From an uncultured Gammaproteobacteria bacterium (GTDB lineage Bacteria > Patescibacteriota > Patescibacteriia > Magasanikbacterales > GCA-002688135): DNA of 64,000 bases. The notes beneath the pieces were generated by a model. That model was not told the origin of the DNA. It searched no databases and worked only from the letters and a program-made list of their open reading frames with translations. Positions 32,852 to 52,342 of the stretch are shown piece by piece (the first letter of the stretch is position 1; each line of letters opens with the position of its first letter). Made by a program: the position numbers and the translations under genes. Location: the NCBI GenBank assembly GCA_964536205.1, contig CAZHVT010000005.1:24076-88075 (forward strand), read 5' to 3'.

Positions 32852-32889
32852 GTATTATGGTGTAAAGTTAGATAAAAGTCAATTGGTGT

Positions 32890-33010
32890 TCGTAATGCGT
32901 AATTCGTAAAGCGTCATGCGGGCAATGAGTCGCCAGAGGCGACATATTTATACAGCGCCTGCGGCGATTCCTTATACCTCTTTACGCGTTACTCTTTAAC
33001 GCCTTACTAT
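32890..33010. repeat. Family B element between divergent genes. Arms CGTAATGCGTAATTCGTAAAGCGTCATGCG / CTCTTTACGCGTTACTCTTTAACGCCTTAC flank the GC hairpins GTCGCC-AGAG-GCGAC and CGCC-TGC-GGCG. A T-run and the ATG at 33016 follow.
   Basis: Direct reading. Confidence 0.75.
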
Positions 33011-33015
33011 TTTTT

Positions 33016-34002: not shown

Positions 34003-34003
34003 T

Positions 34004-35233
34004 ATGTCTGATGCAGGAGGAAAACCACTTGTCTTGCACATCATCACACAAGCTGAATTTGGTGGTGCGCAAAAGTATGTTTTTGATGTTGCGACGGGAT
34101 TGTCCGATCGCTATCGTACTATTATTGCGAGTGGTCAGATTTCAATTTCTAAGGAGTTGTTAGTGCGCGCTGCTCATGCTGGAATTGAAACTGTTGAGCT
34201 CAAGCATGTTGTTCGTTCAATTTCACCACTTTACGATCCTATTGGATATCGTGAGATTGTGAAATTGATTGAGCGTATTCGTCCTGACATTATTCATTTG
34301 CATGCATCTAAGATGAGTGTGTTGGGTTCGATGGCTGCAGCGAAAATTACTCGACGTTACAAGAAAAAAGGAGGGTATCGACCAAAGGTTGTGTATACAG
34401 CGCATGGTTGGGTGTTCACTGAAAAGATTTCAACACTCAAGCGCTGGTTTTATATTTGGGCTGAAAAATTTATGAGCAGAATGAAGGATGCGATTATTGT
34501 GCTTTCTCGAGTTGATAAAGATTTGGCGTATGAGCACGGCATCATGCCAAAGAAGAAAATCTATATTATCAATAACGGAGTTGATATTCCGGAATCTGAT
34601 TTTCTGTCCAAATCTGAAGCTCGGCATGTTTTGCATAGAAAACTGCATCGAATGCAACCGCCAAAACCACTCGATAAGAAAAATTTTTGGATTGGAACTA
34701 TAGCAAATTTGTACCCTAACAAGGGACTGTCGAATTTGATTGAGGCTGTGGGAATAGTGAATAATCAGATTGATGACACGCAATACGATGCGCATGTACA
34801 GTCTGTGATTATTGGTGATGGTATGTTGCGCGGAGAATTAACTGAAGATATTTCGTCACGCGATCTTCAGGATTTTGTTTTTTTAGCCGGGGCTGTTCCT
34901 GATGCATACAAATATTTGCGAGCGTTTGATTTGTTTGTTTTGCCATCATTAAAGGAAGGAATTCCATTTGTTTTGCTTGAAGCCATGTCCGCCGGAGTTC
35001 CCATCGTCGCATCTTCAGTTGGAGCGATTCCTGAAATTTTGGAAGATCGTAAGACAGCGATTTTAGTGGAACCGGGAAATGCAACACAACTTGCTGAACA
35101 TATTCATGAGTTAATGCATCACGAAACATTGTCTTCTGAATTAGCAAAAGCTGCGCATGAGCACGTTACAAAAAAACTAACCGCCTCAAAGATGATTGAA
35201 GCGGTTGATCGTGTGTATCAAGATTTATTGTAA
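34004..35233 (+). CDS. GT4 glycosyltransferase.
   Basis: LKEGIPFVLLEAMSAGVPIVASSVGAIPEIL. Confidence 0.7.
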   Translation: MSDAGGKPLVLHIITQAEFGGAQKYVFDVATGLSDRYRTIIASGQISISKELLVRAAHAGIETVELKHVVRSISPLYDPIGYREIVKLIERIRPDIIHLHASKMSVLGSMAAAKITRRYKKKGGYRPKVVYTAHGWVFTEKISTLKRWFYIWAEKFMSRMKDAIIVLSRVDKDLAYEHGIMPKKKIYIINNGVDIPESDFLSKSEARHVLHRKLHRMQPPKPLDKKNFWIGTIANLYPNKGLSNLIEAVGIVNNQIDDTQYDAHVQSVIIGDGMLRGELTEDISSRDLQDFVFLAGAVPDAYKYLRAFDLFVLPSLKEGIPFVLLEAMSAGVPIVASSVGAIPEILEDRKTAILVEPGNATQLAEHIHELMHHETLSSELAKAAHEHVTKKLTASKMIEAVDRVYQDLL

Positions 35234-35244: not shown

Positions 35245-37827
35245 TCAGCCTGATTTCAATTCTCGAGATAGTGGACAGTCTTCATCCCAACGTGCTGGCA
35301 TTTTTGTCAGTTTTTTTGATTTTCCAGTTTCAAATACACATCTTAAAAATCCATCTGGGTTGATGTCGTCTATGTGGTTTTCAAAGTAGGGCTCCATCAT
35401 TTTGTATGCTTCTTCGTCTTGTGCGTATCCCGCCGCAAACAAGACTTCCTCATAATTTTGATATGTCCATGAATCTTTTCTTTCTACAATATACGCATTG
35501 AATAAAGCTTGGGTCTCCTCACTTGTGATTGCTATTTCTGGTTTTGTGAGAAATTCCGCGAACTGCTCGGTTTTGTCAGGATAACGTGCTTTGATTTGTA
35601 GTCCGATTTCGTGTGCCTTTTGATGATATCCAAAATTTTTCCATGTTTGCGCCTCTCGAATATATATTTCTGGTGTCACCCTCTGTCCAGCATTCTCAAT
35701 CATGAGTATAAGCTGACGAATGAACCGGGGTTCATGAAATCCATTCTCTGCGATGACTCGAGAGAGAAGATCTAAATCCAGAGCGCTTGTTGGTACAAAC
35801 TCTTGAAGTATAATTCCTCGATATACATCTTCCCATGCATCTGCTTTGTCTCCAGCACCATACTTAACTTTCCCCCGCTCCCACCAGACTCGGCCTACTG
35901 TGTCGTTGATAGCTATTGCTTGATCTATAAGTTCTAGTGCGCGATCTGTTTGTCCATTTTTTGCATATAGACTTGAGGCAATGAGATATAGCTGCTGTCG
36001 ATTTGGTGAGCGTTCTAGAATCTGCTGAAAACGCTCTTCAACAAACTGTTCCCATTTTGGATCGGGAAACATAAACGATGCGAGGTCAATCTCAATAAGT
36101 GCGATGTGTAATTCATTTGGTTGATTTTGATATGCTTCGTTTAATCCTTCGAGTGTTAGCTCGACAATCTCTTTGAGCTCTTCTTTTGGATACTGTTGTT
36201 GCCATATTGGTAATCGTCCATGAACCTTTCGTCCAATGTCCAGACGTATATCTGCGATATGCGGAGTTTCAAATTCATACGAAGCTTTGATGAGTTGTTT
36301 TGCATTGACTGGACCTTGTTGATGCAATGCTGCCAATACTTTCAGGACAGCTGCGTTTGCTTGGGATGGTTTGATGTTGATCTCAAAAATAAATGCTAGT
36401 GCAACCACGGAAACAATGGCGCATGTTATCCCAATTTTTTTTGACTGCGCTGGGGATGTGTGTTCCTCGTATACTCTTTTTGGTCTTGTGATTTCGTAAA
36501 TGAATGCGAGTGTTAGGAAAAGTGTTATGAATGAAATTGGGGTATCAAATACAAACATCTTGGAAAAGAAATCTGTAAATAAAAGTGCATAGCCTGCGTA
36601 TATTTTCTTTTTGTGTGCAGGATTTTCTTCTTTAAGTCGCCATAACATCATGAATGCTGCGATGTATAATCCTAGATAGCCGATGATTCCGAAAATTCCG
36701 GCGGTTGCTAATGTATTGAAAAGTACGTTATGAGCATTATCAAACCAAGATTCATAATATGAGTTTGATAGTGATTCTGGAATGAGATGTTTGTTGAATG
36801 CTGCGTAGAAATTTTCATGACCCCACCCGAAAAGTGGTTTTTCTTTCCATGCTGAAACTGATGTTTTCCATGCTGCGATTCGCGGACCGGAATCGCTTGT
36901 GATATCTGCCAATCGACTTACTCCTCTAACTTTTTTTAGAGCATCGTTTGCCGGAGAAAACCACACTATTCCAACCACTATAATAATAAGAGCTACAATT
37001 CGTATCCCCCATTTTCTGACGTGAGTGTGTTCTTTGAGAACCGCGATTAATCCGGTGACAAAAATTCCCGCAAGAAGACCAAGAATCGCGCCACGACTTC
37101 CAGAATACAATAAGAGCAATCCACTAAGCGCTATGATTGCCCCGAGTAGTGTTTTTTTGAATTTGTTTTTTTCTAGGAAGAACAGCATGGCTGCGACGAT
37201 CATACTGATTGCCATGAAGTTTCCGAGATAAATGAAATTACCAAGTGTTGAAAAAACCCTTCCTCCGCCTTCGTTGAATAAAACTCCGTTTCCGTATCGT
37301 TGAGCTAATCCGACAATTGATATAACGACTGATATGAGCATGAAGATCCACCACAATGATCTCCACCCAATCAATTTAATAGCTGTTGCTCTTTCTCCTT
37401 TCCATCCCCGAACTGAAAGCCCAATGAGAAAAAACCACAGTGCGTAATGCATGATTGAGATGAGTCCAAGCATACGCTCATGTCCACCCCAAAATGATCT
37501 GTGTGGATCTACTCCAAAAAAAGAGGAAAGTCCGAGAGATATAATATACAGAATTACCGCGTAGTGAATGAGTGATAACTTGTATCGAATTTGTTTGTTA
37601 TATAATGCGACGATTATTAGACATGCGGCTGCTATTATAGTCACTACACGCAGGAAAATCACCTTTGGAAAGATGAAGGGGAAAATGAATTTTGATGGAA
37701 TTACGATGAGTGGTGTGAGGAGCGCGACCAATACATATGCTGCACCTACTAAATACAATAAACGAAGACCCTTGTTTTTGGGTCTTTTTTCTGGGGATTT
37801 CTGAGTATCTGTGGTATCTGTGTTCAT
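35245..37827 (-). CDS. O-antigen ligase family (Wzy_C; WaaL/PglL-like) polytopic membrane protein with a C-terminal TPR-repeat domain.
   Basis: Wzy_C hallmarks SGSRGAILGLLAG, FGWGHENF, NAHNVLFNTLATAGIFG. About 12 TM helices, then a soluble helical-repeat domain. It is a paralogue of the three genes at 40205..46933. Confidence 0.65.
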   Translation of the reverse strand: MNTDTTDTQKSPEKRPKNKGLRLLYLVGAAYVLVALLTPLIVIPSKFIFPFIFPKVIFLRVVTIIAAACLIIVALYNKQIRYKLSLIHYAVILYIISLGLSSFFGVDPHRSFWGGHERMLGLISIMHYALWFFLIGLSVRGWKGERATAIKLIGWRSLWWIFMLISVVISIVGLAQRYGNGVLFNEGGGRVFSTLGNFIYLGNFMAISMIVAAMLFFLEKNKFKKTLLGAIIALSGLLLLYSGSRGAILGLLAGIFVTGLIAVLKEHTHVRKWGIRIVALIIIVVGIVWFSPANDALKKVRGVSRLADITSDSGPRIAAWKTSVSAWKEKPLFGWGHENFYAAFNKHLIPESLSNSYYESWFDNAHNVLFNTLATAGIFGIIGYLGLYIAAFMMLWRLKEENPAHKKKIYAGYALLFTDFFSKMFVFDTPISFITLFLTLAFIYEITRPKRVYEEHTSPAQSKKIGITCAIVSVVALAFIFEINIKPSQANAAVLKVLAALHQQGPVNAKQLIKASYEFETPHIADIRLDIGRKVHGRLPIWQQQYPKEELKEIVELTLEGLNEAYQNQPNELHIALIEIDLASFMFPDPKWEQFVEERFQQILERSPNRQQLYLIASSLYAKNGQTDRALELIDQAIAINDTVGRVWWERGKVKYGAGDKADAWEDVYRGIILQEFVPTSALDLDLLSRVIAENGFHEPRFIRQLILMIENAGQRVTPEIYIREAQTWKNFGYHQKAHEIGLQIKARYPDKTEQFAEFLTKPEIAITSEETQALFNAYIVERKDSWTYQNYEEVLFAAGYAQDEEAYKMMEPYFENHIDDINPDGFLRCVFETGKSKKLTKMPARWDEDCPLSRELKSG

Positions 37828-37870
37828 GAGAGACAGTATAGCATATATTCCATTTTTTGATGTTAATGCC

Positions 37871-37899
37871 TTGACAATCGAGGTTTTCTGTGCTAAATT
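37871..37899 (+). promoter_or_regulatory. Sigma70-type promoter TTGACA-N17-TAAATT, with an AAAGGGGGTG Shine-Dalgarno 5 nt before the ATG at 37956.
   Basis: Direct reading. Confidence 0.4.
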
Positions 37900-37955
37900 A
37901 CAGGCACGTAGCGTTCATTAAAACGTGAATTAGAACTTCAAAAAGGGGGTGCTTC

Positions 37956-40169
37956 ATGCAACGCTTGAGCCTCATGACCGCACTGCTTTTGGTGTGTGCA
38001 TGTCAAACAGATTTCAACCAAGCTGATTATTGTGCTTCGAATCCGGATCATCCGGACTGTCCGCAACTCTTTGTCAGCCAGGATACAGATACATCAGCTG
38101 ATGGGGTTGTCACGGTCGATGATTCTGTTTTCACTGATGATGCAATGCATATTGATACTTCTCCAGACATCATCGTGACTGATACTGATGTTGATCCAAC
38201 AGGAGAGGAAGAGGTTTCTGACACAGAAGATTCGTCTGACACTGATCAAGAAATTGATGAGCCTGACGTTCCTGATGTTGATGATACTACTGACGCTCCT
38301 GATGTCACAGATACTTCCGACACTGCCGATACTGATTCTGGTGACGGTGATGTTGAGGATATTGAGAGTGATGGTGATTTATCTACTGATGATACTTCGG
38401 ATGCTGACACAGATTCAACTGATGACAGCGATGTTGTTGAGCCTGAGTGTGTGATCGACTCCGATTGTGAGTATCTTAACGAGAACCTGTGCAACGGGTC
38501 GTGGAAATGTGTTGAAGGCGAATGTGCATTCAGTGAGAAGATCGTTGATTGTTCTAAAACCGAAACTCTTCCCTGCTATATTTCAGTGTGCGAACCGTCT
38601 GATGGTACGTGCCAAGCGCAAAAGACTGAGGATGGTGTGTCGTGTAATGATAGCGATCCTTGTACGGAAAATGATGTCTGTACTTCAGGCTCATGTGCTG
38701 GTGATCCAATCACCTGCCCGTGTCTAGATGATGCGGATTGCATTGAGCTTGAGGACGACGATTTGTGTAATGGTACGCTTGCGTGTGTTGACGGCGATTG
38801 TACGCTTGATCCAACAAGCGTGGTTGTCTGCAAGGATAGCCTTACCTGCGAGACCGAGACATGTATTCCTGCTTCAGGCGAATGTTCCTCGACACCAGTC
38901 ATCTGCAACGATGATGTGGGCTGTACGATTGATGTTTGCGTGGAGGACGTAGGATGTACATTTACTGCTGATCATCCGTCGTGTGACGATGGTGATGATT
39001 GTACGGTGAATACCTGCAACACAAACAGCGGCTGCTCTGCGATTCCATCGTTTTCACCTTGTGATGACGAGGATCCATGCACAAAAGATGATACATGCAC
39101 AAAGGATCTTGCGTGCGTTGGGGTCGACATTGATTGTGACGATCTCAATCCCTGCACAAACGATTCCTGTCAGAATGGCGATTGTCTATTCACACCACAT
39201 ACCAATGAGTGTGATGATGGTGACCCTTGCACGATCAATGATGTTTGCCAGAGCAGCGTATGTGAAGGTGAGCTGGTGTGTGAGTGTGAGGGCAATGCAG
39301 ATTGCGCAGATAAAAATGACTTGAATCTGTGTAATGGTTCATACATGTGTGACAAATCCACTGCGGTTTGGACATGTGAAATTGATCCGTCTTCGATTGT
39401 CAATTGTCCTGATCCAATCGGACAATGCCTTGTGACAAGCTGTGTGCCAAGTACTGGTGCGTGCGTTGAATCATTCGCTCCAAGCAGCACGCCGTGTGAC
39501 GATGGCGATGCATGTACGGACAGCGACGTTTGTGCAATCAATGGAAGTTGTGGGGGTTCTAATAAAACCTGCAACGACGATAACCCATGCACTGACGATA
39601 GCTGTGATTCGAGCTTGGGTTGTGTCTATAAGATTTCTGCACCAAAACCCTGCGATGATGGCAATGAGGACACCGTTACTGATGAGTGTTCTGGCGGCCT
39701 TTGCTCAGGAGTTGTTCTCTTCAAAGAATTCTTCAATGAAGGTGCTCCTGCTGACTGGGATTTTGATCAAAATGCCGATGGTTCGATCATCTTTGATGTT
39801 ACTAATGACGAGTGGAATGACGATCCCTCAAATTTCTATTTGGGTGTGTGGATCATTTCTGAAATCACACTTACTGAAACCCTTATGTTGAGTGTCACGC
39901 TCCCAGAGCTCCCCATTCCGAACAGCGAAAGTCCGAAACTTTCGTTTGTGCGGTGGGGCGGCATGGCATGTGGCGTTGGCAATCTTCACTGGCATGTAGA
40001 CGACGAACTTGTCGATGGTTCCTGTGGTAGCGAGAGTGACATCGGGACATTCGTCCCACTTGATCCTTCACATGATTTTGCGACTGTTGTTTTCACCTTT
40101 ACGATTCAGCCTGGTACGCATAGTCCTGGGCTCAAGTATCGTATCGACAACGTGAAAATGAATAAGTAG
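37956..40169 (+). CDS. Secreted or lipoprotein-type cysteine-rich repeat protein. It has a signal peptide ending LLLVCAC, a roughly 130-aa poly-acidic D/T/S/E linker, about 14 'CxDxxPCTxDxC' repeats and a C-terminal beta-sandwich-like domain.
   Basis: Repeats such as CDDGDPCTINDVCQSSVCEG, CNDDNPCTDDSCDSSLGCVY and CDDLNPCTNDSCQNGDC. They resemble Dictyostelium-type CTDC repeats or Myxococcus cysteine-rich repeats. Family assignment from memory is tentative. Confidence 0.6.
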   Translation: MQRLSLMTALLLVCACQTDFNQADYCASNPDHPDCPQLFVSQDTDTSADGVVTVDDSVFTDDAMHIDTSPDIIVTDTDVDPTGEEEVSDTEDSSDTDQEIDEPDVPDVDDTTDAPDVTDTSDTADTDSGDGDVEDIESDGDLSTDDTSDADTDSTDDSDVVEPECVIDSDCEYLNENLCNGSWKCVEGECAFSEKIVDCSKTETLPCYISVCEPSDGTCQAQKTEDGVSCNDSDPCTENDVCTSGSCAGDPITCPCLDDADCIELEDDDLCNGTLACVDGDCTLDPTSVVVCKDSLTCETETCIPASGECSSTPVICNDDVGCTIDVCVEDVGCTFTADHPSCDDGDDCTVNTCNTNSGCSAIPSFSPCDDEDPCTKDDTCTKDLACVGVDIDCDDLNPCTNDSCQNGDCLFTPHTNECDDGDPCTINDVCQSSVCEGELVCECEGNADCADKNDLNLCNGSYMCDKSTAVWTCEIDPSSIVNCPDPIGQCLVTSCVPSTGACVESFAPSSTPCDDGDACTDSDVCAINGSCGGSNKTCNDDNPCTDDSCDSSLGCVYKISAPKPCDDGNEDTVTDECSGGLCSGVVLFKEFFNEGAPADWDFDQNADGSIIFDVTNDEWNDDPSNFYLGVWIISEITLTETLMLSVTLPELPIPNSESPKLSFVRWGGMACGVGNLHWHVDDELVDGSCGSESDIGTFVPLDPSHDFATVVFTFTIQPGTHSPGLKYRIDNVKMNK

Positions 40170-40175
40170 CTTACG

Positions 40176-40208
40176 AGCAGGCCTCCCATATCGGGAGGCC
40201 TTTTTTAT
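40176..40208. terminator. Bidirectional rho-independent terminator between convergent genes.
   Basis: AGGCCTCCC-atat-CGGGAGGCCT followed by TTTTTTATT. Confidence 0.7.
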
Positions 40209-42370: not shown

Positions 42371-44670
42371 AATGTTGGAATTACATCAAAGTCCTTATGT
42401 AAATCTAAAATCACATCTGTTTGATCGTCACGCTCCATTTCCGGCAATTCCGCTATAAACAGTTCTGCTTCAGCCCTGAAACTTTCGTCTAGTGATACCG
42501 CAGTTTGTGCTGCTAGCTTTGCACTGTGCGCATACCCACCCTCCTTAAGATAGATTGCGTATTCAGCCCACGCTGTAGCTTTTCGAATGTTTCCTTCAAT
42601 ATGCATTATCTGCCAATACACCACGAGTGCCAGATCATACTCTTTATGCTCGAGCAAAATTCCCGCTGTTAATTTTTTTTGAGCACCTTCTACAGGAATA
42701 TGCCCCAACTCAATTGCCTCGATTAACTCTTTAACCCCCTCCTCATCCTGATCAAGCGTCAAAAGTGATAATCCGTAATACCAATGCCCGAGCCCAACTT
42801 TTTCTGATAAATCATGCGCCTGCTTATATGACTTATGAGCTGTGATGGGATCACCTGCATCAACGTATAATTCTGCGAGGGCAAATAGGTATTGCTGTCT
42901 TTCTGATTTTTTTATTGCGTCATTGAAGTACTCAATTCCCTTTTGCGCGTATTTTGGATTTTTCTTTGCAGCAGTGTAGTACAGAACACCATTTAAATAG
43001 GTATGATATGAATCATGTTTGTGATCGATGATATTTTTCAGACCAACCTGTTCAGCTTTTGTGATGAATTGCTCTGCTTCTGCATCGCTATATACGCCCG
43101 CCTGCAGAGCCCGAATCACATTCTTTACATACTCATTTCGTGACTCTGTTTTGTATGGTGATTGCATGTCGAGCACTCCTTGCAATCTCGGAGTAGCCTG
43201 CAGACGGGAATGTTCTGCGGCAAATACAAGTGTGTTGATGAGTGCAGAAGATTCTTTCATTGGTTGATATGCATATCGATATACGCCCATGAGTCCGACT
43301 AACATTGCTATACCGAACACAACCATTTTTTGTCCCTTAATTATTTCATTATCAATCTCCTGTATCTCATTTTTTTCGTACAGTAACATTATCGCAAATA
43401 ATAGAATGAGTGACACTGCGGTGTCGAATGAGAACATGAGGTGAACCATGTAGGCTGCGAGTGTTGCGATAGCTACAATGTTGACCGGTTTTTTCCAACG
43501 ACTGGATTGCCATAATTGATATAAAAATCTCAACATCAAAGCCGCGTATGCAAGTAAGCCAATTACACCTCCTGTTACCAGTAGTTCTACGATTATGTTA
43601 TGTGCGCGATCAAATCGAGTTTCTGCAAATCCTAAATACAGTGAATCGGGATTGTAGTTGACATCAAATGCTGCGATGAATGATTCTTGTCCCCATCCAA
43701 GGATTGGTTTTTGTTTGAAGGATTCCCATCCGCTTTTCCATGCATTTACACGAGAGACGAGCGAGCTATCTTGCAATGTTGTGACGCCAACTAATCTACC
43801 GATTAATGGAACTTTTTTCTCGATTGATTTGTGGAATATTAGTACAAGCGAGACGAGCAGCAGACCTGAAATAATACATCCTATTGCCGCGTGTCTGATT
43901 ATTTTTCTTTTTGAGCTTAATGTTACAAGCATGCCCGCAATTACCGCACCAACAATAAATCCTATAGCCGCTCCCCTTGTTTGCGTGAAAAACATGATGA
44001 GAGTTTGGAATAATGCGAGTGCTGCGAATGCAAATTTATGTGAACGTTTTTCGTGGGTGAAAAATCCATAGCCGGCGATTCCAATGTATAAAATTAGCAT
44101 TCCTGCAAAAAAGATTGGGTTTGCGATAGTTCCCGAAATTCGCAGACCTGTGTCTACGCCAAATAACACAATTCCTTTGAGACGAGCCAGTGCAATAAGA
44201 GACACCACTAATCCAGATACAGAAATTATTTGTGTGAGTCGTTTGTAATCTTTTGTGGTCGTGTGCGTAGCTCTCGTTAATACAAACCACAACCAGATTT
44301 GCGTGAGGGTGAGTAAGCCTGTTCCGCGCGATTGTGTTCCCCAAAAACTTCGCGAGAGATCAACTCCAAAAAGCGATGAGATCCACGCGGTCGCGAGATA
44401 TATTGAAAATAGTAAGGTTATTGGATTTTTAAGAATGGAGGTTATTTTTTTGCGCTGATCTGGAAAAGTGATCAACACAACCCATATAACTAATAATGCA
44501 ATTGTTGTTGTATGCAAAAAAAGTGTCTTTCCAAACATGAATGGATAGATCACAGATGGTAGTACAACCAGCGGCATGAGCGCCACTGTGAGTCGTGATA
44601 TCCATCTACTGTAATTGATGAGGTTGAATTTATTCATCGGTAGGTTGTGTCGCAGTTTTGATGCGAGCAA
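42367..44670 (-). CDS. O-antigen ligase family (Wzy_C) membrane protein with a C-terminal TPR domain.
   Basis: TQTRGAAIGFIVG, LGWGQESF, RAHNIIVELLVTGGVIG. Its start overlaps the upstream stop by 4 nt. Confidence 0.65.
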   Translation of the reverse strand: MLASKLRHNLPMNKFNLINYSRWISRLTVALMPLVVLPSVIYPFMFGKTLFLHTTTIALLVIWVVLITFPDQRKKITSILKNPITLLFSIYLATAWISSLFGVDLSRSFWGTQSRGTGLLTLTQIWLWFVLTRATHTTTKDYKRLTQIISVSGLVVSLIALARLKGIVLFGVDTGLRISGTIANPIFFAGMLILYIGIAGYGFFTHEKRSHKFAFAALALFQTLIMFFTQTRGAAIGFIVGAVIAGMLVTLSSKRKIIRHAAIGCIISGLLLVSLVLIFHKSIEKKVPLIGRLVGVTTLQDSSLVSRVNAWKSGWESFKQKPILGWGQESFIAAFDVNYNPDSLYLGFAETRFDRAHNIIVELLVTGGVIGLLAYAALMLRFLYQLWQSSRWKKPVNIVAIATLAAYMVHLMFSFDTAVSLILLFAIMLLYEKNEIQEIDNEIIKGQKMVVFGIAMLVGLMGVYRYAYQPMKESSALINTLVFAAEHSRLQATPRLQGVLDMQSPYKTESRNEYVKNVIRALQAGVYSDAEAEQFITKAEQVGLKNIIDHKHDSYHTYLNGVLYYTAAKKNPKYAQKGIEYFNDAIKKSERQQYLFALAELYVDAGDPITAHKSYKQAHDLSEKVGLGHWYYGLSLLTLDQDEEGVKELIEAIELGHIPVEGAQKKLTAGILLEHKEYDLALVVYWQIMHIEGNIRKATAWAEYAIYLKEGGYAHSAKLAAQTAVSLDESFRAEAELFIAELPEMERDDQTDVILDLHKDFDVIPTL

Positions 44671-46933
44671 TTAAATCTGTTACTTGCGGTTCTAATACTG
44701 CGTCTAATTCAAGCGCTGTCATTGCATCTGTTCGCGCAATTGAAAATGCTTCCAGATTATATGCAGCATAAGCCTTTCGCAAAAAGTTGTGCCCTGTTTT
44801 GAGATGTGGATTTTCTTGTGAGAGATTTAGAACAACATTGAGCTGTTGAAATGCCGCCGTGTAATCCCCTACTTCCTCCAGCAATACAAGAATTAAATCG
44901 AGTGTATCGTGTGACATGCGTGGCAGATATCGTCCATCTCTGATTAGTTGAGCTGCGACAAGCCCTGCCTCATGTGTTTGTTCTTGAGCTGACATTATGA
45001 TCACGCGCGTCCATTGAAAATCATTGTTTGAAGGGACATGTAATACGATTGTGTCGACTAGTTCGCGCGCTTTTTCGAGCTGCCCTGTTTGCATATAATA
45101 GTTCATCTGGTTGATGTCTACTGTTTGTCTGTCTGGTGATAATGCTCGTACATCATCATAATCTTTTTCTATCGTATCTTTGAATTTCTCTGTATCAACA
45201 TGTTCTATAGAAAGCGCCTTGAGCTGAACCTCTCGCAATTGCATTGCATATCGCGGTGCGTATGTTTCGTTATACTGTGCAAATCCGTTTAGCAGTATAG
45301 GGATCCCTCTCACAAAAAATTCTTTCGGTAGTGCGCCAGTATTATTATTTACTAAATCGTCAGTTAATATTTTCAATGTGTCTGTTTGTGTCATTGACTG
45401 TATCGCCAGAACGGAAGTCAATTTTTTTTCATACCCTTCAATATCTCCTTGTTCGAACGTATTTCTTACCTCTTGAACTTGTTTTGCTTCCATCCATGGT
45501 TTTAGAATCAATACAAACAACACAGCAACCGCAGCGAGAGTGATTACTATTTTACTTGAAACCCCCCGCGTCCAGTTTGGCAATTCTTTTGACTTCTCTA
45601 CTGCAGCTCCCAAACCTACGATAAGTGCGAGATGCAGAATGAGTGATGGGGTATTAAAAGCAAATAGCCCGAAGCCTGCATATGCACCCATTATCCCGGC
45701 TGTAAATATTCGCAATGTTTCCTGCTCTTTAGTTTTTGACTTTACCAAAAGAGGTGAGATGATCAGTAATAAATATACAAGTAATCCGATTAAACCGGTT
45801 GTAACCGCAACTTCGAGCAATTGATTATGTGCGCGTTCGGTCCATGTTTCTTGTAGACCAAACTGCGCTACTTCTTTTTTGTAATGCGTATCAAATACTG
45901 TTTCGTACATTTCATGTCCCCAACCGAGGAGTGGTTTTTCTTTGATACCATCTAATGCGGATGACCAAAATAACAAACGCGTTGAGATTCCTCCTTGTGA
46001 GTCGAGTTGCTCAAACCAGTACATTGGATGATATGGTCTTTGTGCTTGTTGATCTGCTGGAGTGAAAGCTAATAGATATACAAAAGCTGTTACACAAAGA
46101 AGGGCTGCCACAGCAAATCTTTTAATGATAACGTGAAGTTTTGAACTTCGAGTTTGAAGATATGCGAGCCCCATCAACACTAGACCGATAATAACACCCA
46201 CCTGTGACCCTCTTGAACCCGTTCCCCACACACCAAATATCGCGAGTACTATCCCGACCATGACTGCCTTTTTAATCCAGCGGGTTTTTTCGAGGCGTAC
46301 GTGCAATCCCATGAGAAACAGACTCATTAACACGTATGCTGCTAGATATGTTGAGCTGCCCCACAATCCAGTTAATTTTATTCTAACAAATCCGTAATAC
46401 TGATCCCATCCTATTCCTTCTGTTCCCACTATTGCGTTGAAAAATTCTGGTGCGAATTGTACAAGAATTGCCAGTCCAACCACAATCACAGCGGCGAGTG
46501 ATTGCATTCTTAAAATAAATAATCTTTTGTTACTTGTATTTGCCCACCAACTTAACCACCACGCAAATCCTATCATCAATATCCACATCCATGCGCCGTT
46601 TAATCTTAAGGCATCTCCCAACAACCCCTTTATGGGATCTCCTAGAAATGACCATGCCACTACCACGATCCCATACAATGTCAACATTAACAGCCCGAAG
46701 TTTTTTCCGTGTGAGAGTGGTTCGTTTGTTTTATTTTTTTTCAGCCATGTGTAAATGAGGAGAAATGTGATTACTCCTGCAATCAGCAGCCATTTACCTA
46801 CATGGCCTTCATATATGAGTGATGGCGTTGTGATTACAGGAAGCAAAAAAACCGCGGCAACACAACCGCGGATTATCCAATTTTTTGTAACTTTAGTGTT
46901 GTTTTCACTCATGTTGATGGATTTACAATCCAA
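44630..46933 (-). CDS. O-antigen ligase family (Wzy_C) membrane protein with a C-terminal TPR domain.
   Basis: TGSRGSQVGVIIG, LGWGHEMYE, RAHNQLLEVAVTTGLIG. An alternative start MSENNTK lies at about 46912. Confidence 0.65.
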   Translation of the reverse strand: MDCKSINMSENNTKVTKNWIIRGCVAAVFLLPVITTPSLIYEGHVGKWLLIAGVITFLLIYTWLKKNKTNEPLSHGKNFGLLMLTLYGIVVVAWSFLGDPIKGLLGDALRLNGAWMWILMIGFAWWLSWWANTSNKRLFILRMQSLAAVIVVGLAILVQFAPEFFNAIVGTEGIGWDQYYGFVRIKLTGLWGSSTYLAAYVLMSLFLMGLHVRLEKTRWIKKAVMVGIVLAIFGVWGTGSRGSQVGVIIGLVLMGLAYLQTRSSKLHVIIKRFAVAALLCVTAFVYLLAFTPADQQAQRPYHPMYWFEQLDSQGGISTRLLFWSSALDGIKEKPLLGWGHEMYETVFDTHYKKEVAQFGLQETWTERAHNQLLEVAVTTGLIGLLVYLLLIISPLLVKSKTKEQETLRIFTAGIMGAYAGFGLFAFNTPSLILHLALIVGLGAAVEKSKELPNWTRGVSSKIVITLAAVAVLFVLILKPWMEAKQVQEVRNTFEQGDIEGYEKKLTSVLAIQSMTQTDTLKILTDDLVNNNTGALPKEFFVRGIPILLNGFAQYNETYAPRYAMQLREVQLKALSIEHVDTEKFKDTIEKDYDDVRALSPDRQTVDINQMNYYMQTGQLEKARELVDTIVLHVPSNNDFQWTRVIIMSAQEQTHEAGLVAAQLIRDGRYLPRMSHDTLDLILVLLEEVGDYTAAFQQLNVVLNLSQENPHLKTGHNFLRKAYAAYNLEAFSIARTDAMTALELDAVLEPQVTDLIARIKTATQPTDE

Positions 46934-46936
46934 ATT

Positions 46937-48529
46937 TTATGAAGGAATTGGTGACACGGAAACCGCTATTTGGTCTATCTTGACACCATCTACGGTTGCA
47001 GTCAAGATCGAGGTTCCTGCCTCATTTGAGGAGAAAATACACTTCACTTTTCCGCTTGTTGTTTTTCCGTTGTCGCATTCTATGTTGTCGATGGATCCTC
47101 TGTTGCTCGATAGCCCGGCATCAAGTCCTGACAAAAATTCACCTTTGTAGTTTTTTGCAAATAATGTGATGGTCACTTCTTCCACCCCCCCAACTAGAAT
47201 TGGCGAGGGTGTTTGCTCTGTGTAACTTTTTTTCGCATCCGCTTTTGCCTCATCTAGATCTGCTTCAAATGTGACTTTGGGGAAATCTGAAATTATGAGA
47301 TCGCCAATTTTTGCTACCAATGTTCTCTCACCTGCTTGAGATGCAGTGAGGTATATAATGACCAATCCTTGATTGTTTGTTGTTGATCCAGCTGCAAATT
47401 CAATTACATCTGTTGAGTTTCCTGTATCAATTTCAACCTCGCGACTCCTTAGTAATGTGTTGTCCGATGATCGCGCTATAATATTCACAACAACCGTATC
47501 TACTAGATTTGCCGTAGCTGATGTTCTGGTTGTTGTGACAGCTGATCTGGTTGGTGAGACTTTTGAAATACTTTCTAGATCAGCAGTGAATGATATGTCT
47601 GTTTTTTTGTCCTCGCTTACCTCAATTGTTTCATGGATGGTGTTATATCTCTGTCTTACTACTTCTGCAAAATATGTTCCTGGCATGACCGCGAAATTTA
47701 CTTTTGTAGCATTTATGATATGTGTTGCATCTCGCGCAACCGCTCCGATTTCTTGTGCGATCTTTGTTCGCGCTCTGTCTGTGTAGAGCGTCACCTTGGT
47801 GTCACTGATAAGTGTCCCAGCTGTATTGACTACTGAAATACTTGCACGTGATTGCAATGCTCCGCATGATATAGCGGAACCGCTTTTTACGCATGATCCA
47901 GAGCCTTTAAATGAGACTGATTTTGTAGACTTGTCATTTACCGAAATTACCCCAAGCAGACCGTCCGTTGTTTGTGATTGAGGAAGATATGTTGGATGTC
48001 CAATTTCTAGTGCGCCGATATTTTGAGCTGCAAAATAGTAAGCCCCGCCAGATGCATGTCTTGCAGAAGCTCCTTCATAAAAAATATCTGCATTGGTGAT
48101 TGATGTTCCGTCTTCATCGTACGGACGAACAACGAGCGTGTAAGCCAGCGTGATTGTTTCTGATGATATGTCAAAGTTTTTGTCTGCTTGAATGTTGCCT
48201 AGATCAACTGAACCAGAAGACACAAAACCTGGCGAAGAAAATGTTGCCGTACAGTGAGTTGAGGTTTCGGTGTGATCGTAAAATAATTCGACATTATATC
48301 TATTTGGAATGGTTGTATCAGCTTTTACTAATCCTGTTTTGTGTATGTTGCACGTCGCAAGATGAACCTGTGGTGCTCGATCAAAAGAATTTCCAAATTG
48401 ATCTGTTGCTGAAAAATGTAAGTTTATTGATCTTTCTTGTGCACTTGCTGTATGTGCCCAGAAAAAAAGCATTGCTGTCGCACAGACAAAAATAAACGCT
48501 TTTGAGACTCGAGATACTGCAATAGACAT
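46937..48529 (-). CDS. Secreted protein with Ig-like and carboxypeptidase-regulatory-like beta domains. The start is set at MSIAVSRV… (a signal peptide), not at the upstream ORF extension.
   Basis: Signal peptide AFIFVCATAMLFFWAHTASAQ. Beta-rich repeats. Promoter-like TTTACC-N18-TATACT upstream of the ATG at 48529. Confidence 0.5.
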   Translation of the reverse strand: MSIAVSRVSKAFIFVCATAMLFFWAHTASAQERSINLHFSATDQFGNSFDRAPQVHLATCNIHKTGLVKADTTIPNRYNVELFYDHTETSTHCTATFSSPGFVSSGSVDLGNIQADKNFDISSETITLAYTLVVRPYDEDGTSITNADIFYEGASARHASGGAYYFAAQNIGALEIGHPTYLPQSQTTDGLLGVISVNDKSTKSVSFKGSGSCVKSGSAISCGALQSRASISVVNTAGTLISDTKVTLYTDRARTKIAQEIGAVARDATHIINATKVNFAVMPGTYFAEVVRQRYNTIHETIEVSEDKKTDISFTADLESISKVSPTRSAVTTTRTSATANLVDTVVVNIIARSSDNTLLRSREVEIDTGNSTDVIEFAAGSTTNNQGLVIIYLTASQAGERTLVAKIGDLIISDFPKVTFEADLDEAKADAKKSYTEQTPSPILVGGVEEVTITLFAKNYKGEFLSGLDAGLSSNRGSIDNIECDNGKTTSGKVKCIFSSNEAGTSILTATVDGVKIDQIAVSVSPIPS

Positions 48530-48597
48530 AGAGTATTCTTGAATATATACATCAGTAGTATAGCAGATTTTCTCACAATCGGTAAACAAAAACAAAA

Positions 48598-48640
48598 CCC
48601 CCTCGCAAAAGGGGGTTTGTTTGGGTAATGAAACCCGACG
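48598..48640 (-). terminator. Rho-independent terminator of the giant surface-protein gene.
   Basis: On the minus strand: AAACCCCCT-tttgcg-AGGGGGTTT followed by TGTTTTTGTTT. Confidence 0.7.
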
Positions 48641-52321: not shown

Positions 52322-52342
52322 ATAGAATATCTTTCTTTGCAA

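What the first reader, a model, noticed from the sequence alone, without database searches (positions are those of the whole stretch)
35245..48595. Four PglL/WaaL-like Wzy_C-TPR paralogues surrounding a Cys-rich repeat lipoprotein, next to a giant surface-protein gene: a candidate protein O-glycosylation or surface-layer assembly system
Four consecutive or convergent genes (35245..37827, 40205..42370, 42367..44670, 44630..46933) encode polytopic Wzy_C (O-antigen ligase) domains. They carry the (S/T)xxRG…GxGxxxF…HNxxL motifs and each is fused to a C-terminal TPR domain. Wzy_C proteins include WaaL, which ligates O-antigen to lipid A-core, and the PglL/PilO O-oligosaccharyltransferases, which glycosylate Ser/Thr of surface proteins. 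The tetrad brackets a gene for an exported protein with a poly-Ser/Thr/Asp acidic linker, which would be an ideal O-glycan acceptor. The tetrad is followed by an Ig-like secreted protein and a 1225-aa Thr/Ser-rich surface protein. The tetrad sits directly downstream of about 35 kb of sugar-donor biosynthesis genes. Taken together this reads as a dedicated machinery for decorating an S-layer or adhesin-type protein, not for making LPS. No lipid A or LPS core genes are visible. The fourfold paralogy with divergent TPR domains could encode acceptor or glycan specificity.
Basis: partly seen in the sequence, partly recalled or inferred. Interest (0 to 1): 0.7.

Follow-up and report, generated by a model that had tools for sequence, protein, structure and literature searches.

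The report
Four glycan-ligase paralogues beside giant surface protein
An uncultured ultra-small (Patescibacteria/CPR) bacterium carries four old copies of a WaaL/PglL-type membrane glycan-transfer enzyme, each ending in an outward-facing TPR domain, in a conserved cassette directly after the gene for a 1,230-residue cell-surface protein; this most likely marks a surface-protein (S-layer-type) glycosylation system, which has not been shown experimentally.

Summary
Four ORFs each have a Wzy_C domain (74-81 bits, cutoff 31.7). All keep the WaaL/PglL Arg-Arg-His residues. Each ends in a roughly 290-380-residue helical domain, which the AlphaFold model of one paralogue shows as an extracytoplasmic TPR superhelix.

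Relatives place the window in Patescibacteria, probably the ABY1-type lineages. That makes a lipid A-core ligase role unlikely.

The main new evidence is synteny. In this branch, the cassette HTH | ECF sigma - DUF5667 - ~1,200-aa beta-sandwich protein - (Ig-like or small TPR protein) - Wzy_C-TPR x1-4 - GT4 genes recurs across genomes whose giant proteins are only 30-48% identical. The paralogues have positional orthologues, so the array is old.

The best reading (about 0.4) is that these are O-oligosaccharyltransferase-like enzymes decorating the giant surface protein, like WsfB and WsaA/WsaB of Firmicute S-layers. A glycolipid or cell-wall ligase (TacL-like) and a Wzy-type polymerase are not excluded.

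Points against: the PglL_A motif is absent, no flippase or priming transferase lies in the window, two thirds of giant-family loci lack an adjacent Wzy_C-TPR gene, and the link to the Cys-rich lipoprotein is weak.

In passing, I found a covarying structured RNA motif, absent from Rfam 15, in the giant gene's leader.

The parts
35245..37827 (-). Wzy_C-TPR paralogue A (860 aa). It has its own upstream region, divergent from the Cys-rich gene, and about 90 extra C-terminal residues.
   Evidence: Wzy_C at 74.3 bits, with sub-threshold TPR_19/16/14 hits. Full-length match to the family profile. In the NJ tree it groups with last-position array members of other loci.
37956..40169 (+). Cys-rich acidic exported protein and lipoprotein candidate (737 aa, 70 Cys, pI 4.05). 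It has an Asp/Thr/Ser-rich linker followed by Cys-rich repeats.
   Evidence: Translation, composition, Dicty_CTDC at 28.8 bits against a cutoff of 27. Only one homologue was found next to another array, in L029.
40179..40201 (.). Terminator-like GC-rich hairpin between the convergent Cys-rich gene and paralogue B.
   Evidence: 9-bp stem, 7 GC pairs, followed by a T-run.
40205..42370 (-). Wzy_C-TPR paralogue B (721 aa).
   Evidence: Wzy_C at 77.0 bits. TPR_2 at 22 bits, below its cutoff. Positional orthologues occupy the third array position in L005 and L008.
42367..44670 (-). Wzy_C-TPR paralogue C (ORF 767 aa; public gene aa from 44637).
   Evidence: Wzy_C at 77.1 bits. Gene call. Positional orthologues occupy the second array position in L005 and L008.
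44630..46933 (-). Wzy_C-TPR paralogue D (ORF 767 aa; public gene aa from 46912). This is the paralogue that was modelled.
   Evidence: Wzy_C at 80.8 bits. PDB sequence hit to 7tpg WaaL, E 2.9e-8. AlphaFold2 pLDDT 87.9 with 13 TM helices and a C-terminal helical solenoid. Foldseek matches WaaL at TM 0.60 and TPR superhelices at about 0.5.
46937..48595 (-). Secreted Ig-like protein (Big_1 + Invasin_D3), 552 aa, or 530 aa from an internal start.
   Evidence: Pfam. Conserved at the same position in L005 and L008.
48595..48618 (-). Terminator-like hairpin about 30 nt after the giant gene's stop codon.
   Evidence: 10-bp stem followed by a T-run.
48647..52342 (-). Giant surface protein (1231-aa ORF; 1224 aa as called). 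It has a signal/TM segment, an N-terminal alpha/beta domain, a Pro/Thr-rich linker and about eight beta-sandwich domains.
   Evidence: Composition. No Pfam or NCBIfam hit. At least 219 length-conserved homologues, those with names from Patescibacteria lineages. AlphaFold2 pLDDT 86. Foldseek returns only generic Ig-array proteins. Linker sequences.
52482..52533 (-). Weak copy of the conserved structured leader element (P1 stem / AAAGGUCG loop / P2 hairpin) upstream of the giant gene.
   Evidence: The motif is visible in the sequence. The model R2 scores it at only 11.8 bits, E 1.2, in the window. The family-wide element is strongly supported.
52819..54099 (-). DUF5667 single-pass membrane protein, an anti-sigma candidate.
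   Evidence: PF18915 at 36.1 bits. One TM segment. Found upstream of giant genes in 40 of 50 assessable loci.
54102..54656 (-). ECF-type sigma factor.
   Evidence: Sigma70_r2 and r4_2. Found upstream of giant genes in 47 of 50 assessable loci.
54820..55158 (+). Divergent HTH_17 regulator.
   Evidence: PF12728 at 45.2 bits. Found at the same position in L001, L005, L088, L089 and L090.
30548..35233 (.). Double GT4 glycosyltransferase (30548-32851, -), NAD-epimerase/dehydratase (33016-34002, +) and GT4 (34004-35233, +). Their homologues flank the arrays in other genomes.
   Evidence: Pfam. Homologues lie immediately after the arrays in L009, L032, L043, L060 and L082.
898..30567 (.). Glycan assembly and modification genes: GT2, GT4, two PMT_2 (GT-C) proteins, methyltransferases, epimerases, an AsnB-like amidotransferase, WecB-like 2-epimerase, deacetylase, formyltransferase and MBOAT.
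   Evidence: Pfam. No Bac_transf, Glycos_transf_4, Polysacc_synt or ABC exporter was found.

Best explanation
The four genes encode WaaL/PglL-type lipid-linked-glycan transferases of a large family whose retrieved relatives are almost all Patescibacteria. Each has a 12-TM WaaL-like core, a 13th TM helix, and an extracytoplasmic TPR superhelix. They sit in a conserved envelope cassette: ECF sigma, DUF5667 anti-sigma candidate, structured leader, giant beta-sandwich surface protein, terminator, then the accessory genes.

The most likely mechanism runs as follows. Undecaprenyl-pyrophosphate-linked glycans are built by the neighbouring glycosyltransferases and modifying enzymes. They are flipped outward by a transporter encoded elsewhere. 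The Arg-Arg-His site then transfers them en bloc onto Ser/Thr (or Tyr) of the secreted giant protein, and possibly of the Ig-like protein and the Cys-rich lipoprotein. The TPR domain would hold the protein acceptor. The four anciently diverged paralogues would differ in glycan or acceptor-site specificity.

Shown here: domain content, fold, conserved catalytic residues, taxonomic placement, conserved gene order and positional orthology.

Inferred: the topology (TPR domain outside), the lipid-linked donor, the protein acceptor, and the division of labour among the paralogues.
For: 1. Enzyme class.
- Wzy_C scores 74-81 bits.
- The sequence match to WaaL 7tpg aligns the RG, R...W and AHN motifs.
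- R241, R319 and H369 are conserved in 100, 102 and 102 of 102 family members. Their spacing (78 and 50 residues) matches E. coli WaaL R215/R288/H338 and PglL R224/R298/H349 (PMC3643930).
- Foldseek's top PDB hit is WaaL (E 5.5e-6, TM 0.60 normalised to the target).
- The ligase-type NCBIfam model TIGR03097 scores higher than the polymerase model TIGR04370 (61.6 against 18.4 bits for A; 41.8 against 25.1 for D). Both are below their cutoffs.

2. Acceptor-binding module.
- The C-terminal domain is a TPR-like superhelix matching consensus-TPR and OGT TPR structures.
- It follows a 13th TM helix that comes after a Lys/Arg-rich loop, which places it on the same side as the catalytic loop (inference).

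3. No LPS.
- At least 585 relatives were confirmed, and nearly all the listed ones come from Patescibacteria MAGs.
- CPR bacteria are reported to lack a Gram-negative envelope (PMC6744442).
- The window has no LPS genes.

4. Link to the giant protein.
- The gene order sigma, DUF5667, giant, (Big_1 or TPR protein), Wzy_C-TPR x1-4 is seen in L005, L014, L032, L043, L060, L082, L088, L090, L092, L095, L096, L098, L101, L102, L115 and L166.
- Among loci with at least 2 kb upstream, 7 of 10 multi-copy arrays have a giant-family hit just upstream (one of them, L009, a 712-aa Ig-like protein that also matches the Big_1 protein), against 0 of 51 single-copy loci.
- A terminator-like hairpin after the giant gene, followed by tightly packed or overlapping downstream genes, fits a structural gene plus accessory operon.

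5. Precedent.
- WsfB (Wzy_C + TPR) and WsaA (TPR) + WsaB (Wzy_C) are the predicted S-layer O-OTases of Paenibacillus and Geobacillus (PMC2943079).
- The split TPR + Wzy_C form recurs in L090.
- O-OTase genes are often adjacent to their target genes (PMC3643930).

6. Acceptor features.
- The giant protein is secreted, acidic and 22.8% Ser+Thr. It has a disordered Pro/Thr-rich interdomain linker (PPAPTPTPAGG).
- Neisserial PglL targets such flexible linkers.

7. Age of the paralogues.
- They are 20-25% identical to each other, and B, C and D each pair with the same-position paralogue in L005 and L008 in the NJ tree.
Against: - There is no direct evidence that any protein here is glycosylated.
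- PglL_A (PF15864), which separates PglL from WaaL, is not hit.
- The same family is single-copy in most Patescibacteria loci sampled. There it lies next to murB, secA, a Bac_transf priming enzyme and a Wzx-type flippase, not next to a giant protein. That context fits a general envelope-glycan ligase or polymerase equally well.
- Only 12 of 37 assessable giant-family loci have a Wzy_C-TPR gene directly downstream.
- The array-versus-giant association is confounded by shared ancestry.
- S-layer genes also cluster with cell-wall-polymer genes in Firmicutes (my own knowledge), so synteny does not discriminate between readings.
- TPR domains also occur in polysaccharide-export scaffolds. Weak NCBIfam hits to BcsC and PrsT were seen.
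- No flippase or priming transferase lies in the window.
- Only paralogue D was modelled.
Confidence: 0.4

Rival explanations
1. Glycopolymer ligases acting on a non-protein acceptor. The enzymes would transfer finished lipid-linked polymers onto a membrane glycolipid (as TacL makes pneumococcal lipoteichoic acid) or onto another wall glycan. The polymer would then anchor or organise the giant surface protein through its conserved N-terminal domain. The TPR domain would dock partner proteins rather than the acceptor.
For: - TacL is a Wzy_C/WaaL-like ligase in a monoderm bacterium (PMC5727136).
- The Arg-Arg-His site is the same as in ligases.
- The family is near-universal and single-copy among the Patescibacteria loci sampled, next to murB, Bac_transf and Wzx genes. 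This suggests a housekeeping envelope polymer.
- The giant protein's N-terminal domain is shared with other ~500-aa proteins in these loci, as an anchoring module would be.
- One giant homologue carries a PG_binding_1 domain.
Against: - TacL and WaaL (about 400 aa) have no TPR domain.
- Four ligases in tandem would imply four polymers or acceptors.
- The only described precedents found here for a Wzy_C enzyme paired with TPR (WsfB fused; WsaA + WsaB as separate proteins) are protein O-OTases.
- The tight operon-like placement after a secreted-protein gene resembles the O-OTase-target pairs described.
Confidence: 0.25
2. Wzy-type repeat-unit polymerases. Each paralogue would polymerise a different lipid-linked repeat unit of surface polysaccharides. 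The TPR domain would act as a built-in chain-length or export scaffold.
For: - Pfam Wzy_C also covers polymerases.
- There are weak hits to the repeat-unit polymerase model TIGR04370 (18-25 bits, cutoff 40).
- Single-copy relatives sit with a Bac_transf priming enzyme and a Polysacc_synt (Wzx) flippase, which is the classical Wzx/Wzy cluster make-up.
- The window holds a very large set of glycosyltransferases.
Against: - The ligase/OTase Arg-Arg-His residues are essentially invariant.
- The ligase-type model scores higher than the polymerase model.
- The best structural match is WaaL.
- The window has no Wzx, Wzz or priming enzyme to partner four polymerases.
- No polymerase-specific Pfam family was hit at E <= 0.01.
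Confidence: 0.2
3. Lipid A-core O-antigen ligases (true WaaL) of an LPS pathway.
For: WaaL is the closest solved structure and sequence.
Against: - Relatives are almost all Patescibacteria, a group reported to lack a Gram-negative envelope.
- The window has no lipid A or core genes.
- The proteins carry an extra TM helix and a TPR domain that WaaL lacks.
Confidence: 0.03

Closest known systems
WsfB (Paenibacillus alvei) and WsaA+WsaB (Geobacillus stearothermophilus), the predicted S-layer protein O-oligosaccharyltransferases (PMC2943079)
   Same: - Wzy_C membrane domain combined with a TPR module, either fused (WsfB) or as an adjacent small TPR protein (WsaA/WsaB; compare L090).
- Monoderm-type envelope.
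- Encoded with a glycan-synthesis cluster that even includes an AsnB homologue (wsfA; window 25359-27206).
- The presumed acceptor is a large secreted surface-layer protein.
   Different: - No sequence comparison with WsfB or WsaB could be made here.
- The window has four diverged paralogues instead of one.
- The giant protein has not been shown to be an S-layer protein or to be glycosylated.
- WsfB targets tyrosine.
- The phylum is different.
PglL / PilO / TfpO / PglS O-oligosaccharyltransferases of Gram-negative bacteria (PMC3643930, PMC9829042)
   Same: - Wzy_C domain.
- Conserved Arg-Arg-His residues with the same spacing.
- The enzyme gene is often next to its target gene.
- Targets are often flexible Ser/Ala/Pro-rich linkers.
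   Different: - The PglL_A motif (PF15864) is not detected.
- The C-terminal TPR superhelix is much larger here.
- Those systems target pilins and periplasmic proteins, not a ~1,200-aa beta-sandwich protein.
WaaL O-antigen ligase (Cupriavidus metallidurans, PDB 7TPG)
   Same: - Best sequence match (E 2.9e-8) and best fold match (TM 0.60 normalised to the target).
- Same catalytic loop motifs.
   Different: - WaaL has about 400 aa and 12 TM helices, with no TPR domain.
- Its acceptor is lipid A-core, which Patescibacteria are not expected to make.
TacL lipoteichoic acid ligase of Streptococcus pneumoniae (PMC5727136)
   Same: A Wzy_C/WaaL-like ligase working in a monoderm envelope on an Und-PP-linked polymer.
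   Different: - 397 aa with no TPR domain.
- Single copy.
- The acceptor is a glycolipid.
- Not associated with a surface-protein gene.
TPR-bearing protein glycosyltransferases (OGT; eukaryotic TMTC O-mannosyltransferases). This is an analogy only. The OGT part rests and the TMTC part on my own knowledge.
   Same: A glycosyltransferase fused to a TPR superhelix that selects protein substrates. The OGT TPR is among the structural matches.
   Different: The catalytic folds and donors are unrelated (OGT), or the enzymes are eukaryotic GT-C enzymes using Dol-P-Man (TMTC). There is no homology in the catalytic part.

Membership tests
Wzy_C / O-antigen-ligase superfamily (Pfam PF04932) | Pfam Wzy_C domain above the gathering score | tested here: met
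   74.3, 77.0, 77.1 and 80.8 bits against a cutoff of 31.7.
Wzy_C / O-antigen-ligase superfamily (ligase/OTase branch) | The three functionally important residues: E. coli WaaL R215, R288, H338 = PglL R224, R298, H349 | tested here: met
   - R241, R319 and H369 (paralogue D numbering) are invariant in the four paralogues.
- They are present in 100, 102 and 102 of 102 relatives.
- They align with the corresponding motifs of 7tpg WaaL.
- The residue list comes from PMC3643930.
Wzy_C / O-antigen-ligase superfamily | WaaL-like polytopic fold | tested here: met
   Model of paralogue D with pLDDT 87.9. Foldseek top hit 7tpg_B at E 5.5e-6, TM 0.60 normalised to the target. Only one paralogue was modelled.
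WaaL (lipid A-core O-antigen ligase) | Placement in or with LPS core/lipid A genes, in an organism that makes LPS | tested here: not met
   No lipid A or core family was hit in 64 kb. Relatives are almost all Patescibacteria. The rest of the genome was not examined.
WaaL (lipid A-core O-antigen ligase) | Transfer of Und-PP-linked glycan to lipid A-core | not testable with these tools
   Needs a biochemical assay.
PglL-type O-oligosaccharyltransferase | PglL_A motif (Pfam PF15864), which separates PglL from WaaL | tested here: not met
   No PF15864 hit at E <= 0.01 for any of the four. PilO also lacks this motif, so its absence does not exclude O-OTase activity.
PglL-type O-oligosaccharyltransferase | Gene adjacent to its glycoprotein target | tested here: inconclusive
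   Conserved adjacency to the giant secreted protein in this branch. The target status of that protein is unproven, and adjacency is absent in 25 of 37 assessable giant loci.
WsfB/WsaB-type S-layer O-oligosaccharyltransferase | Wzy_C domain with a C-terminal or adjacent TPR module | tested here: met
   The split form is seen in L090. The definition comes from PMC2943079.
WsfB/WsaB-type S-layer O-oligosaccharyltransferase | Sequence relatedness to WsfB/WsaB themselves | not tested
WsfB/WsaB-type S-layer O-oligosaccharyltransferase | Glycan transferred to an S-layer protein | not testable with these tools
   Needs glycoproteomics or reconstitution.
TPR repeat proteins | Pfam TPR family above the gathering score | tested here: not met
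   All TPR hits are below their cutoffs (17-22 bits). Paralogue C has none.
TPR repeat proteins | Right-handed superhelix of helix-turn-helix pairs | tested here: met
   For paralogue D, helices 498-762 pair up. Foldseek matches CTPR8, the OGT TPR and APC/C TPR subunits with TM 0.4-0.5 normalised to the target.
Wzy O-antigen/capsule polymerase | Match to polymerase-specific models, with partner Wzx (and Wzz) in the locus | tested here: not met
   TIGR04370 gives only 18-25 bits against a cutoff of 40. The window has no Polysacc_synt or Wzz. Single-copy relatives elsewhere do sit next to Wzx, so this remains a live rival.

The most novel reading that the evidence does not exclude
One branch of Patescibacteria (the Uhr-, Magasanik-, Buchananbacteria type) has a dedicated glycosylation system for its major cell-surface (S-layer-type) protein. 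Up to four specialised, anciently diverged Wzy_C-TPR O-oligosaccharyltransferases are encoded directly after the ~1,200-aa structural gene. The whole cassette is controlled by an ECF sigma/DUF5667 pair and a previously undescribed structured RNA leader. As far as the held open-access literature shows, this would be the first protein-glycosylation machinery, and the first surface-protein regulon, defined in CPR bacteria.
Probability: 0.3. Interest if true: 0.75.

Novelty: new variant of a known kind. Interest (0 to 1): 0.6.

Why it matters
CPR/Patescibacteria are thought to live attached to other cells, and their envelope is almost uncharacterised at the molecular level.

If these enzymes glycosylate the giant protein, the locus names three things at once: a candidate major surface protein of a large CPR branch, the enzymes that decorate it, and its regulators.

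The Wzy_C-TPR family is large (1,838 clusters at E <= 1e-10). No paper in the searched library holds both 'O-antigen ligase' and 'candidate phyla radiation', and only one holds 'O-antigen ligase' together with 'Patescibacteria', with the two terms in unrelated passages.

Tandem arrays with conserved positional orthologues are a natural system for studying how O-OTase specificity evolves. Promiscuous O-OTases are also tools for making glycoconjugate vaccines.

The leader RNA motif is a separate, directly testable candidate cis-regulator.

Tried and rejected
- Word-indexed homologue searches with a paralogue and with a family alignment found few relatives (8 and 36). The family's size only became visible through the genome scan and the exhaustive HMMER search.
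- The structure search with the giant protein returned only generic multi-Ig proteins such as alpha-2-macroglobulin, integrins and ciliary proteins. It gave no functional assignment.
- A profile of the giant's N-terminal domain gave only weak, short matches to beta-hairpin repeats of 'cell surface protein'-derived designs. It matched no Pfam family.
- I tested whether giants with adjacent Wzy_C-TPR genes have more Pro/Thr-rich linkers. The numbers were too small (5 against 10) and the boundary detection was poor. The p of 0.03 is treated as inconclusive.
- A metagenome scan with the 59-sequence giant alignment failed for lack of a conserved stretch. It worked with 20 closer sequences.
- Lenient Pfam scans of the unannotated window ORFs found no flippase or priming transferase.
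- Rfam has no family for the leader motif.
- MAFFT could not align the RNA motif's variable stems. I used a 3-sequence gapless seed and two rounds of covariance-model search instead.
- The WaaL structure paper was not held.
- The WaaL/LPS reading was considered and rejected on taxonomy and gene content.

Full report

Yes. ORFs lie at the stated coordinates. The four proteins are referred to as follows:

| Paralogue | Window coordinates | Length | Pfam Wzy_C score (cutoff 31.7) |
|---|---|---|---|
| A | 35245-37827(-) | 860 aa | 74.3 bits |
| B | 40205-42370(-) | 721 aa | 77.0 bits |
| C | 42367-44670(-) | 767-aa ORF | 77.1 bits |
| D | 44630-46933(-) | 767-aa ORF | 80.8 bits |

Each has exactly one Wzy_C domain.

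The TPR label is weak by sequence. Every Pfam TPR hit is below its cutoff, and paralogue C has none. Structure supports the label. The AlphaFold2 model of paralogue D (pLDDT 87.9, pTM 0.86) has a membrane domain followed by a long helix (458-494) and fourteen paired helices. Foldseek matches the membrane part to WaaL (7tpg_B, E 5.5e-6, TM 0.60 on the target). It matches the C-terminal part to consensus-TPR and O-GlcNAc-transferase TPR superhelices (TM about 0.4-0.5 on the target).

The other described genes are also there:
- A 70-Cys acidic protein. It has an N-terminal LLVCAC that I read by eye as lipobox-like (against my recollection of the PROSITE pattern) and an Asp/Thr/Ser-rich linker.
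- A Big_1/Invasin_D3 protein.
- A 1231-aa (1224 as called) acidic protein with 22.8% Ser+Thr and no Pfam or NCBIfam match.

Positions 1-35233 are full of GT2/GT4 glycosyltransferases, two PMT_2 proteins, methyltransferases, epimerases, an AsnB-like enzyme and others. No LPS gene is present.

**2. Whose genome is it?**

The exact contig is a 264-kb metagenomic scaffold (ENA ERZ23499038) that is also present in JGI samples. Nearly all of the 80 best come from Patescibacteria MAGs: Magasanik-, Kaiser-, Gribaldo-, Giovannonibacteria, Paceibacterota and others. A few assemblies carry names that look like placeholders, such as 'uncultured Gammaproteobacteria'.

The giant protein's named homologues are Uhr-, Falkow-, Kerfeld-, Buchananbacteria and 'Patescibacteria group'. 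The organism is therefore a CPR bacterium. This group is reported to lack a Gram-negative envelope (PMC6744442). That, together with the gene content, makes a lipid A-core ligase role very unlikely.

**3. What kind of enzyme?**

The only solved relative by sequence is the WaaL ligase 7TPG (E 2.9e-8). The alignment places the family's RG, R(x3)W and AHN motifs on the corresponding WaaL motifs.

In 102 full-length relatives, R241, R319 and H369 (paralogue D numbering) are present in 100, 102 and 102 sequences. Their spacing of 78 and 50 residues matches two reference sets: E. coli WaaL R215/R288/H338 and Neisseria PglL R224/R298/H349. These are the residues known to matter for both enzymes (PMC3643930).

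NCBIfam gives only sub-threshold hits:
- The best is the 'putative O-glycosylation ligase, exosortase-associated' model TIGR03097 (61.6 bits for A, 41.8 for D, cutoff 188).
- This is above the repeat-unit polymerase model TIGR04370 (18-25 bits, cutoff 40).
- PglL_A (PF15864), the motif built to tell PglL from WaaL, is not hit.

So the proteins belong to the ligase/OTase side of the Wzy_C superfamily but not to the PglL family proper.

From the model and hydropathy, I infer the topology as follows. There are 12 WaaL-like TM helices, then a Lys/Arg-rich loop, then a 13th TM helix. This puts the TPR domain outside the cell, on the same side as the catalytic loop. The topology was not measured.

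**4. The family at large**

An exhaustive HMMER search found 6,940 cluster representatives at E <= 0.001 and 1,838 at E <= 1e-10. Nearly all of the best 150 are 680-770 aa long, and many match across both domains.

In the 80 genome loci, most have a single copy. About 14 have tandem arrays of 2-4. Single-copy genes are typically followed by murB (14 of 88 neighbours scanned) and secA (15). They are often preceded by a Bac_transf priming enzyme (7) and a Polysacc_synt (Wzx) flippase (7). That context says the family uses flipped Und-PP-linked glycans. It does not say what the acceptor is.

I found no paper in the held library that mentions 'O-antigen ligase' together with 'candidate phyla radiation'. 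The one paper that holds 'O-antigen ligase' together with 'Patescibacteria' uses the terms in unrelated passages.

**5. The link to the giant protein**

This is the main new evidence.

- A relative with 48% identical enzymes and an 80% identical giant protein keeps the order HTH_17 | ECF sigma - DUF5667 - giant - Big_1 - Wzy_C-TPR x3.
- The same order, with 2-4 enzyme copies followed by homologues of the window's GT4, epimerase and double-GT4 genes, occurs in L014, L032, L043, L060 and L082.
- An Uhrbacteria locus has sigma - DUF5667 - giant - one Wzy_C-TPR.
- A Buchananbacteria locus has giant - small TPR protein - Wzy_C-TPR.
- A Falkowbacteria locus has giant - small TPR protein - an unassigned 526-aa protein.

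In 80 metagenome loci fetched with the giant protein, the upstream pair is almost constant. Sigma is present in 47 of 50 assessable loci and DUF5667 in 40 of 50. A Wzy_C-TPR gene lies directly downstream in 12 of 37 assessable non-identical loci, mainly those closest to the window's giant (33-42% identity). In more distant branches, the next gene is instead a ~500-aa protein that shares the giant's N-terminal domain.

Among genome loci with at least 2 kb of upstream sequence, 7 of 10 arrays have a giant-family hit just upstream, against 0 of 51 single-copy loci (Fisher p about 3e-7). One of the seven, L009, is a 712-aa Ig-like protein that also matches the Big_1 protein. This comparison is confounded by shared ancestry and counts loci, not independent events.

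A rough neighbour-joining tree pairs each of B, C and D with the paralogue at the same array position in L005 and L008. It places A with last-position members of other arrays. The array is therefore old and its order is conserved.

**6. The giant protein**

It has at least 219 homologues with strikingly constant length (about 1,170-1,270 aa). All are annotated as hypothetical.

The AlphaFold2 model (pLDDT 86.0) shows an N-terminal alpha/beta domain, a short disordered linker, and about eight beta-sandwich domains. PDB matches are generic Ig-domain arrays. The linker is Pro/Thr/Ser/Gly/Ala-rich. It reads DDSNTPPAPTPTPAGG in the window, and close relatives have TPATPGTPATPATP-type versions.

Several properties fit an S-layer-type or fibrillar surface protein:
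- acidic pI
- near absence of Cys
- a signal/TM segment
- a terminator-like hairpin right after the gene
- a long structured leader

None of this proves that identity.

**7. Mechanism and rivals**

Best explanation (confidence about 0.4): these are O-oligosaccharyltransferase-like enzymes that transfer lipid-linked glycans to the giant protein, and perhaps to the Big_1 and Cys-rich proteins. The external TPR domain would hold the protein acceptor, and the four paralogues would divide glycans or sites between them.

The closest precedent is WsfB (Wzy_C + TPR) and WsaA (TPR) + WsaB (Wzy_C), the predicted S-layer O-OTases of Paenibacillus and Geobacillus. The Paenibacillus alvei glycan locus even contains an AsnB homologue, as this window does (PMC2943079). 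The habit of O-OTase genes to sit next to their target genes is documented (PMC3643930).

Rivals:

| Reading | Confidence | Main points |
|---|---|---|
| TacL-like ligase acting on a glycolipid or wall glycan that anchors the surface protein | about 0.25 | TacL is a Wzy_C ligase in a monoderm bacterium (PMC5727136). The murB/Wzx context fits. TacL has no TPR domain. |
| Wzy-type polymerase | about 0.2 | The Wzx + priming-enzyme context of single-copy relatives fits. The invariant ligase residues and the better ligase-model scores argue against it. |
| True WaaL | about 0.03 | Closest structure, but the taxonomy and gene content argue against it. |

Weak points of the best explanation:
- No glycoprotein evidence exists.
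- PglL_A is absent.
- No flippase or priming enzyme lies in the 64 kb.
- Adjacency holds in only about a third of giant-family loci.
- S-layer genes also cluster with wall-polymer genes (my own knowledge).

A homologue lies beside an array in just one other locus.

**8. Found on the way: a structured leader element**

Between the DUF5667 gene and the giant gene, very diverged loci share the sequence AAAGGTCG(A/G). It is flanked by stems whose sequences differ in every locus.

- Folded one by one, 35 of 52 non-identical leaders adopt the same architecture. An outer stem P1 encloses a 5'-side internal loop that holds the conserved bases, and a hairpin P2 abuts P1's 3' arm. Flank-shuffled controls gave 2.0 +/- 1.2 (maximum 6 in 100 shuffles).
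- In 5.0 Mb of fetched sequence (both strands), 56 of 64 AAGGTCG sites with this architecture lie within 450 nt upstream of a giant-family gene.
- A covariance model built in two rounds found 40 matches at E <= 0.05 in 1.16 Mb. All are on the gene's strand and at positions consistent with the giant leaders.
- On that alignment, which is fitted to the model and therefore leans towards it, 92.9% of cells pair, against 57% in shuffles and 29-37% when partners are slid. All 14 pairs show changes on both sides.
- Rfam 15 has no matching family.
- The window's own copy (52482-52533, minus strand) is weak at 11.8 bits, E 1.2. It keeps the loop and P2 but has an AU-rich, mismatched P1. The close relative L005 scores 22.4 bits.
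- Its distance to the start codon varies, mostly 70-130 nt, so it is not the ribosome-binding site.
- The variable hairpin length argues against a fixed-spacing promoter. A 5'-UTR regulatory or stabilising element is my inference.

**9. Verdict**

The locus is a conserved Patescibacteria envelope cassette that couples a large, uncharacterised surface protein to one to four WaaL/PglL-type enzymes with external TPR domains.

It is a new variant of a known kind, the Wzy_C-TPR glycan transferases next to a surface-protein gene. It has unusual fourfold ancient paralogy, a CPR setting, and a previously undescribed RNA leader. Interest: 0.6.

Noticed in passing
window 52482-52533 (-); strong copies at e.g. 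L113:9827-9874, L092:4195-4246, L133:9825-9870, L082:3477-3525: A conserved structured element lies in the leader of the giant surface-protein gene. An outer stem P1 encloses the loop N1-3-AAAGGUCG(A/G), and a hairpin P2 abuts P1's 3' arm. All 14 pairs covary (92.9% paired against 57% in shuffles). Forty covariance-model hits are all in giant-gene leaders. Rfam 15 has no matching family. The window's own copy is weak (11.8 bits).
   Followed up: yes
window 52819-54656 (-), 54820-55158 (+); L088-L170: An ECF sigma factor and a DUF5667 membrane protein directly precede the giant gene in 47 and 40 of 50 assessable loci. A divergent HTH_17 gene is also present in the loci where gene calls were available (L001, L005, L088-L090). 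This looks like a dedicated regulon for one surface protein, and it is more widely conserved than the Wzy_C-TPR genes.
   Followed up: partly
L089:14497-16077, L106:4466-5956, L112:14033-15529, L121:13808-15277, L128:13735-15270 and others: In giant-family loci without Wzy_C-TPR genes, the next gene encodes a ~490-540-aa protein sharing only the giant's N-terminal ~140-residue domain. This suggests the domain is a reusable envelope-anchoring module. A profile of it gives only weak matches to beta-hairpin repeats of 'cell surface protein' designs.
   Followed up: partly
L012, L019, L022, L024, L031, L051, L054, L056, L059, L063, L064, L067, L068 (downstream of the single Wzy_C-TPR gene): In Paceibacteria-type genomes, the single-copy Wzy_C-TPR gene is followed by murB and secA. 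It is often preceded by a Bac_transf priming transferase and a Wzx-type flippase.
   Followed up: partly
window 21719-23851 (-) and 898-2268 (-): A GT2 + PMT_2 fusion protein (710 aa) and a separate PMT_2 protein (456 aa) are present. Both PMT_2 parts are GT-C type enzymes related to protein O-mannosyltransferases and ArnT. They are a second possible route for modifying surface proteins or glycans from polyprenol-phosphate sugars.
   Followed up: no
window 6538-8385 (-): A 615-aa protein with about 9 hydrophobic segments sits in the middle of the glycan cluster. It has no Pfam or NCBIfam match even at lenient thresholds. It could be a diverged flippase or GT-C enzyme.
   Followed up: no
window 55151-56806 (+) and 60284-62362 (-); L088:4052-5872 and 5884-7908: Two more genes recur near the cassette in an Uhrbacteria locus (L088). 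One is a ~550-600-aa single-pass protein with faint CARDB/DUF11-like hits. The other is a GHL15 glycoside-hydrolase-like protein with FG-GAP repeats. The former recurs beside the cassette in many loci, usually divergent from the sigma gene.
   Followed up: no
window 58042-59547 (+): A 501-aa TTG-start ORF with 15 Cys and no family overlaps the end of the DHO_dh-like gene (57459-58400). It lies in the window's most GC-rich stretch (0.477). It is either a spurious ORF or an unusual overlap.
   Followed up: no
L008, L010, L028, L032, L043 and others: Several MAG records that carry this typically patescibacterial family and cassette are titled 'uncultured Gammaproteobacteria' or 'uncultured Candidatus Saccharibacteria'. 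These titles look like placeholder or wrong taxonomic labels.
   Followed up: no
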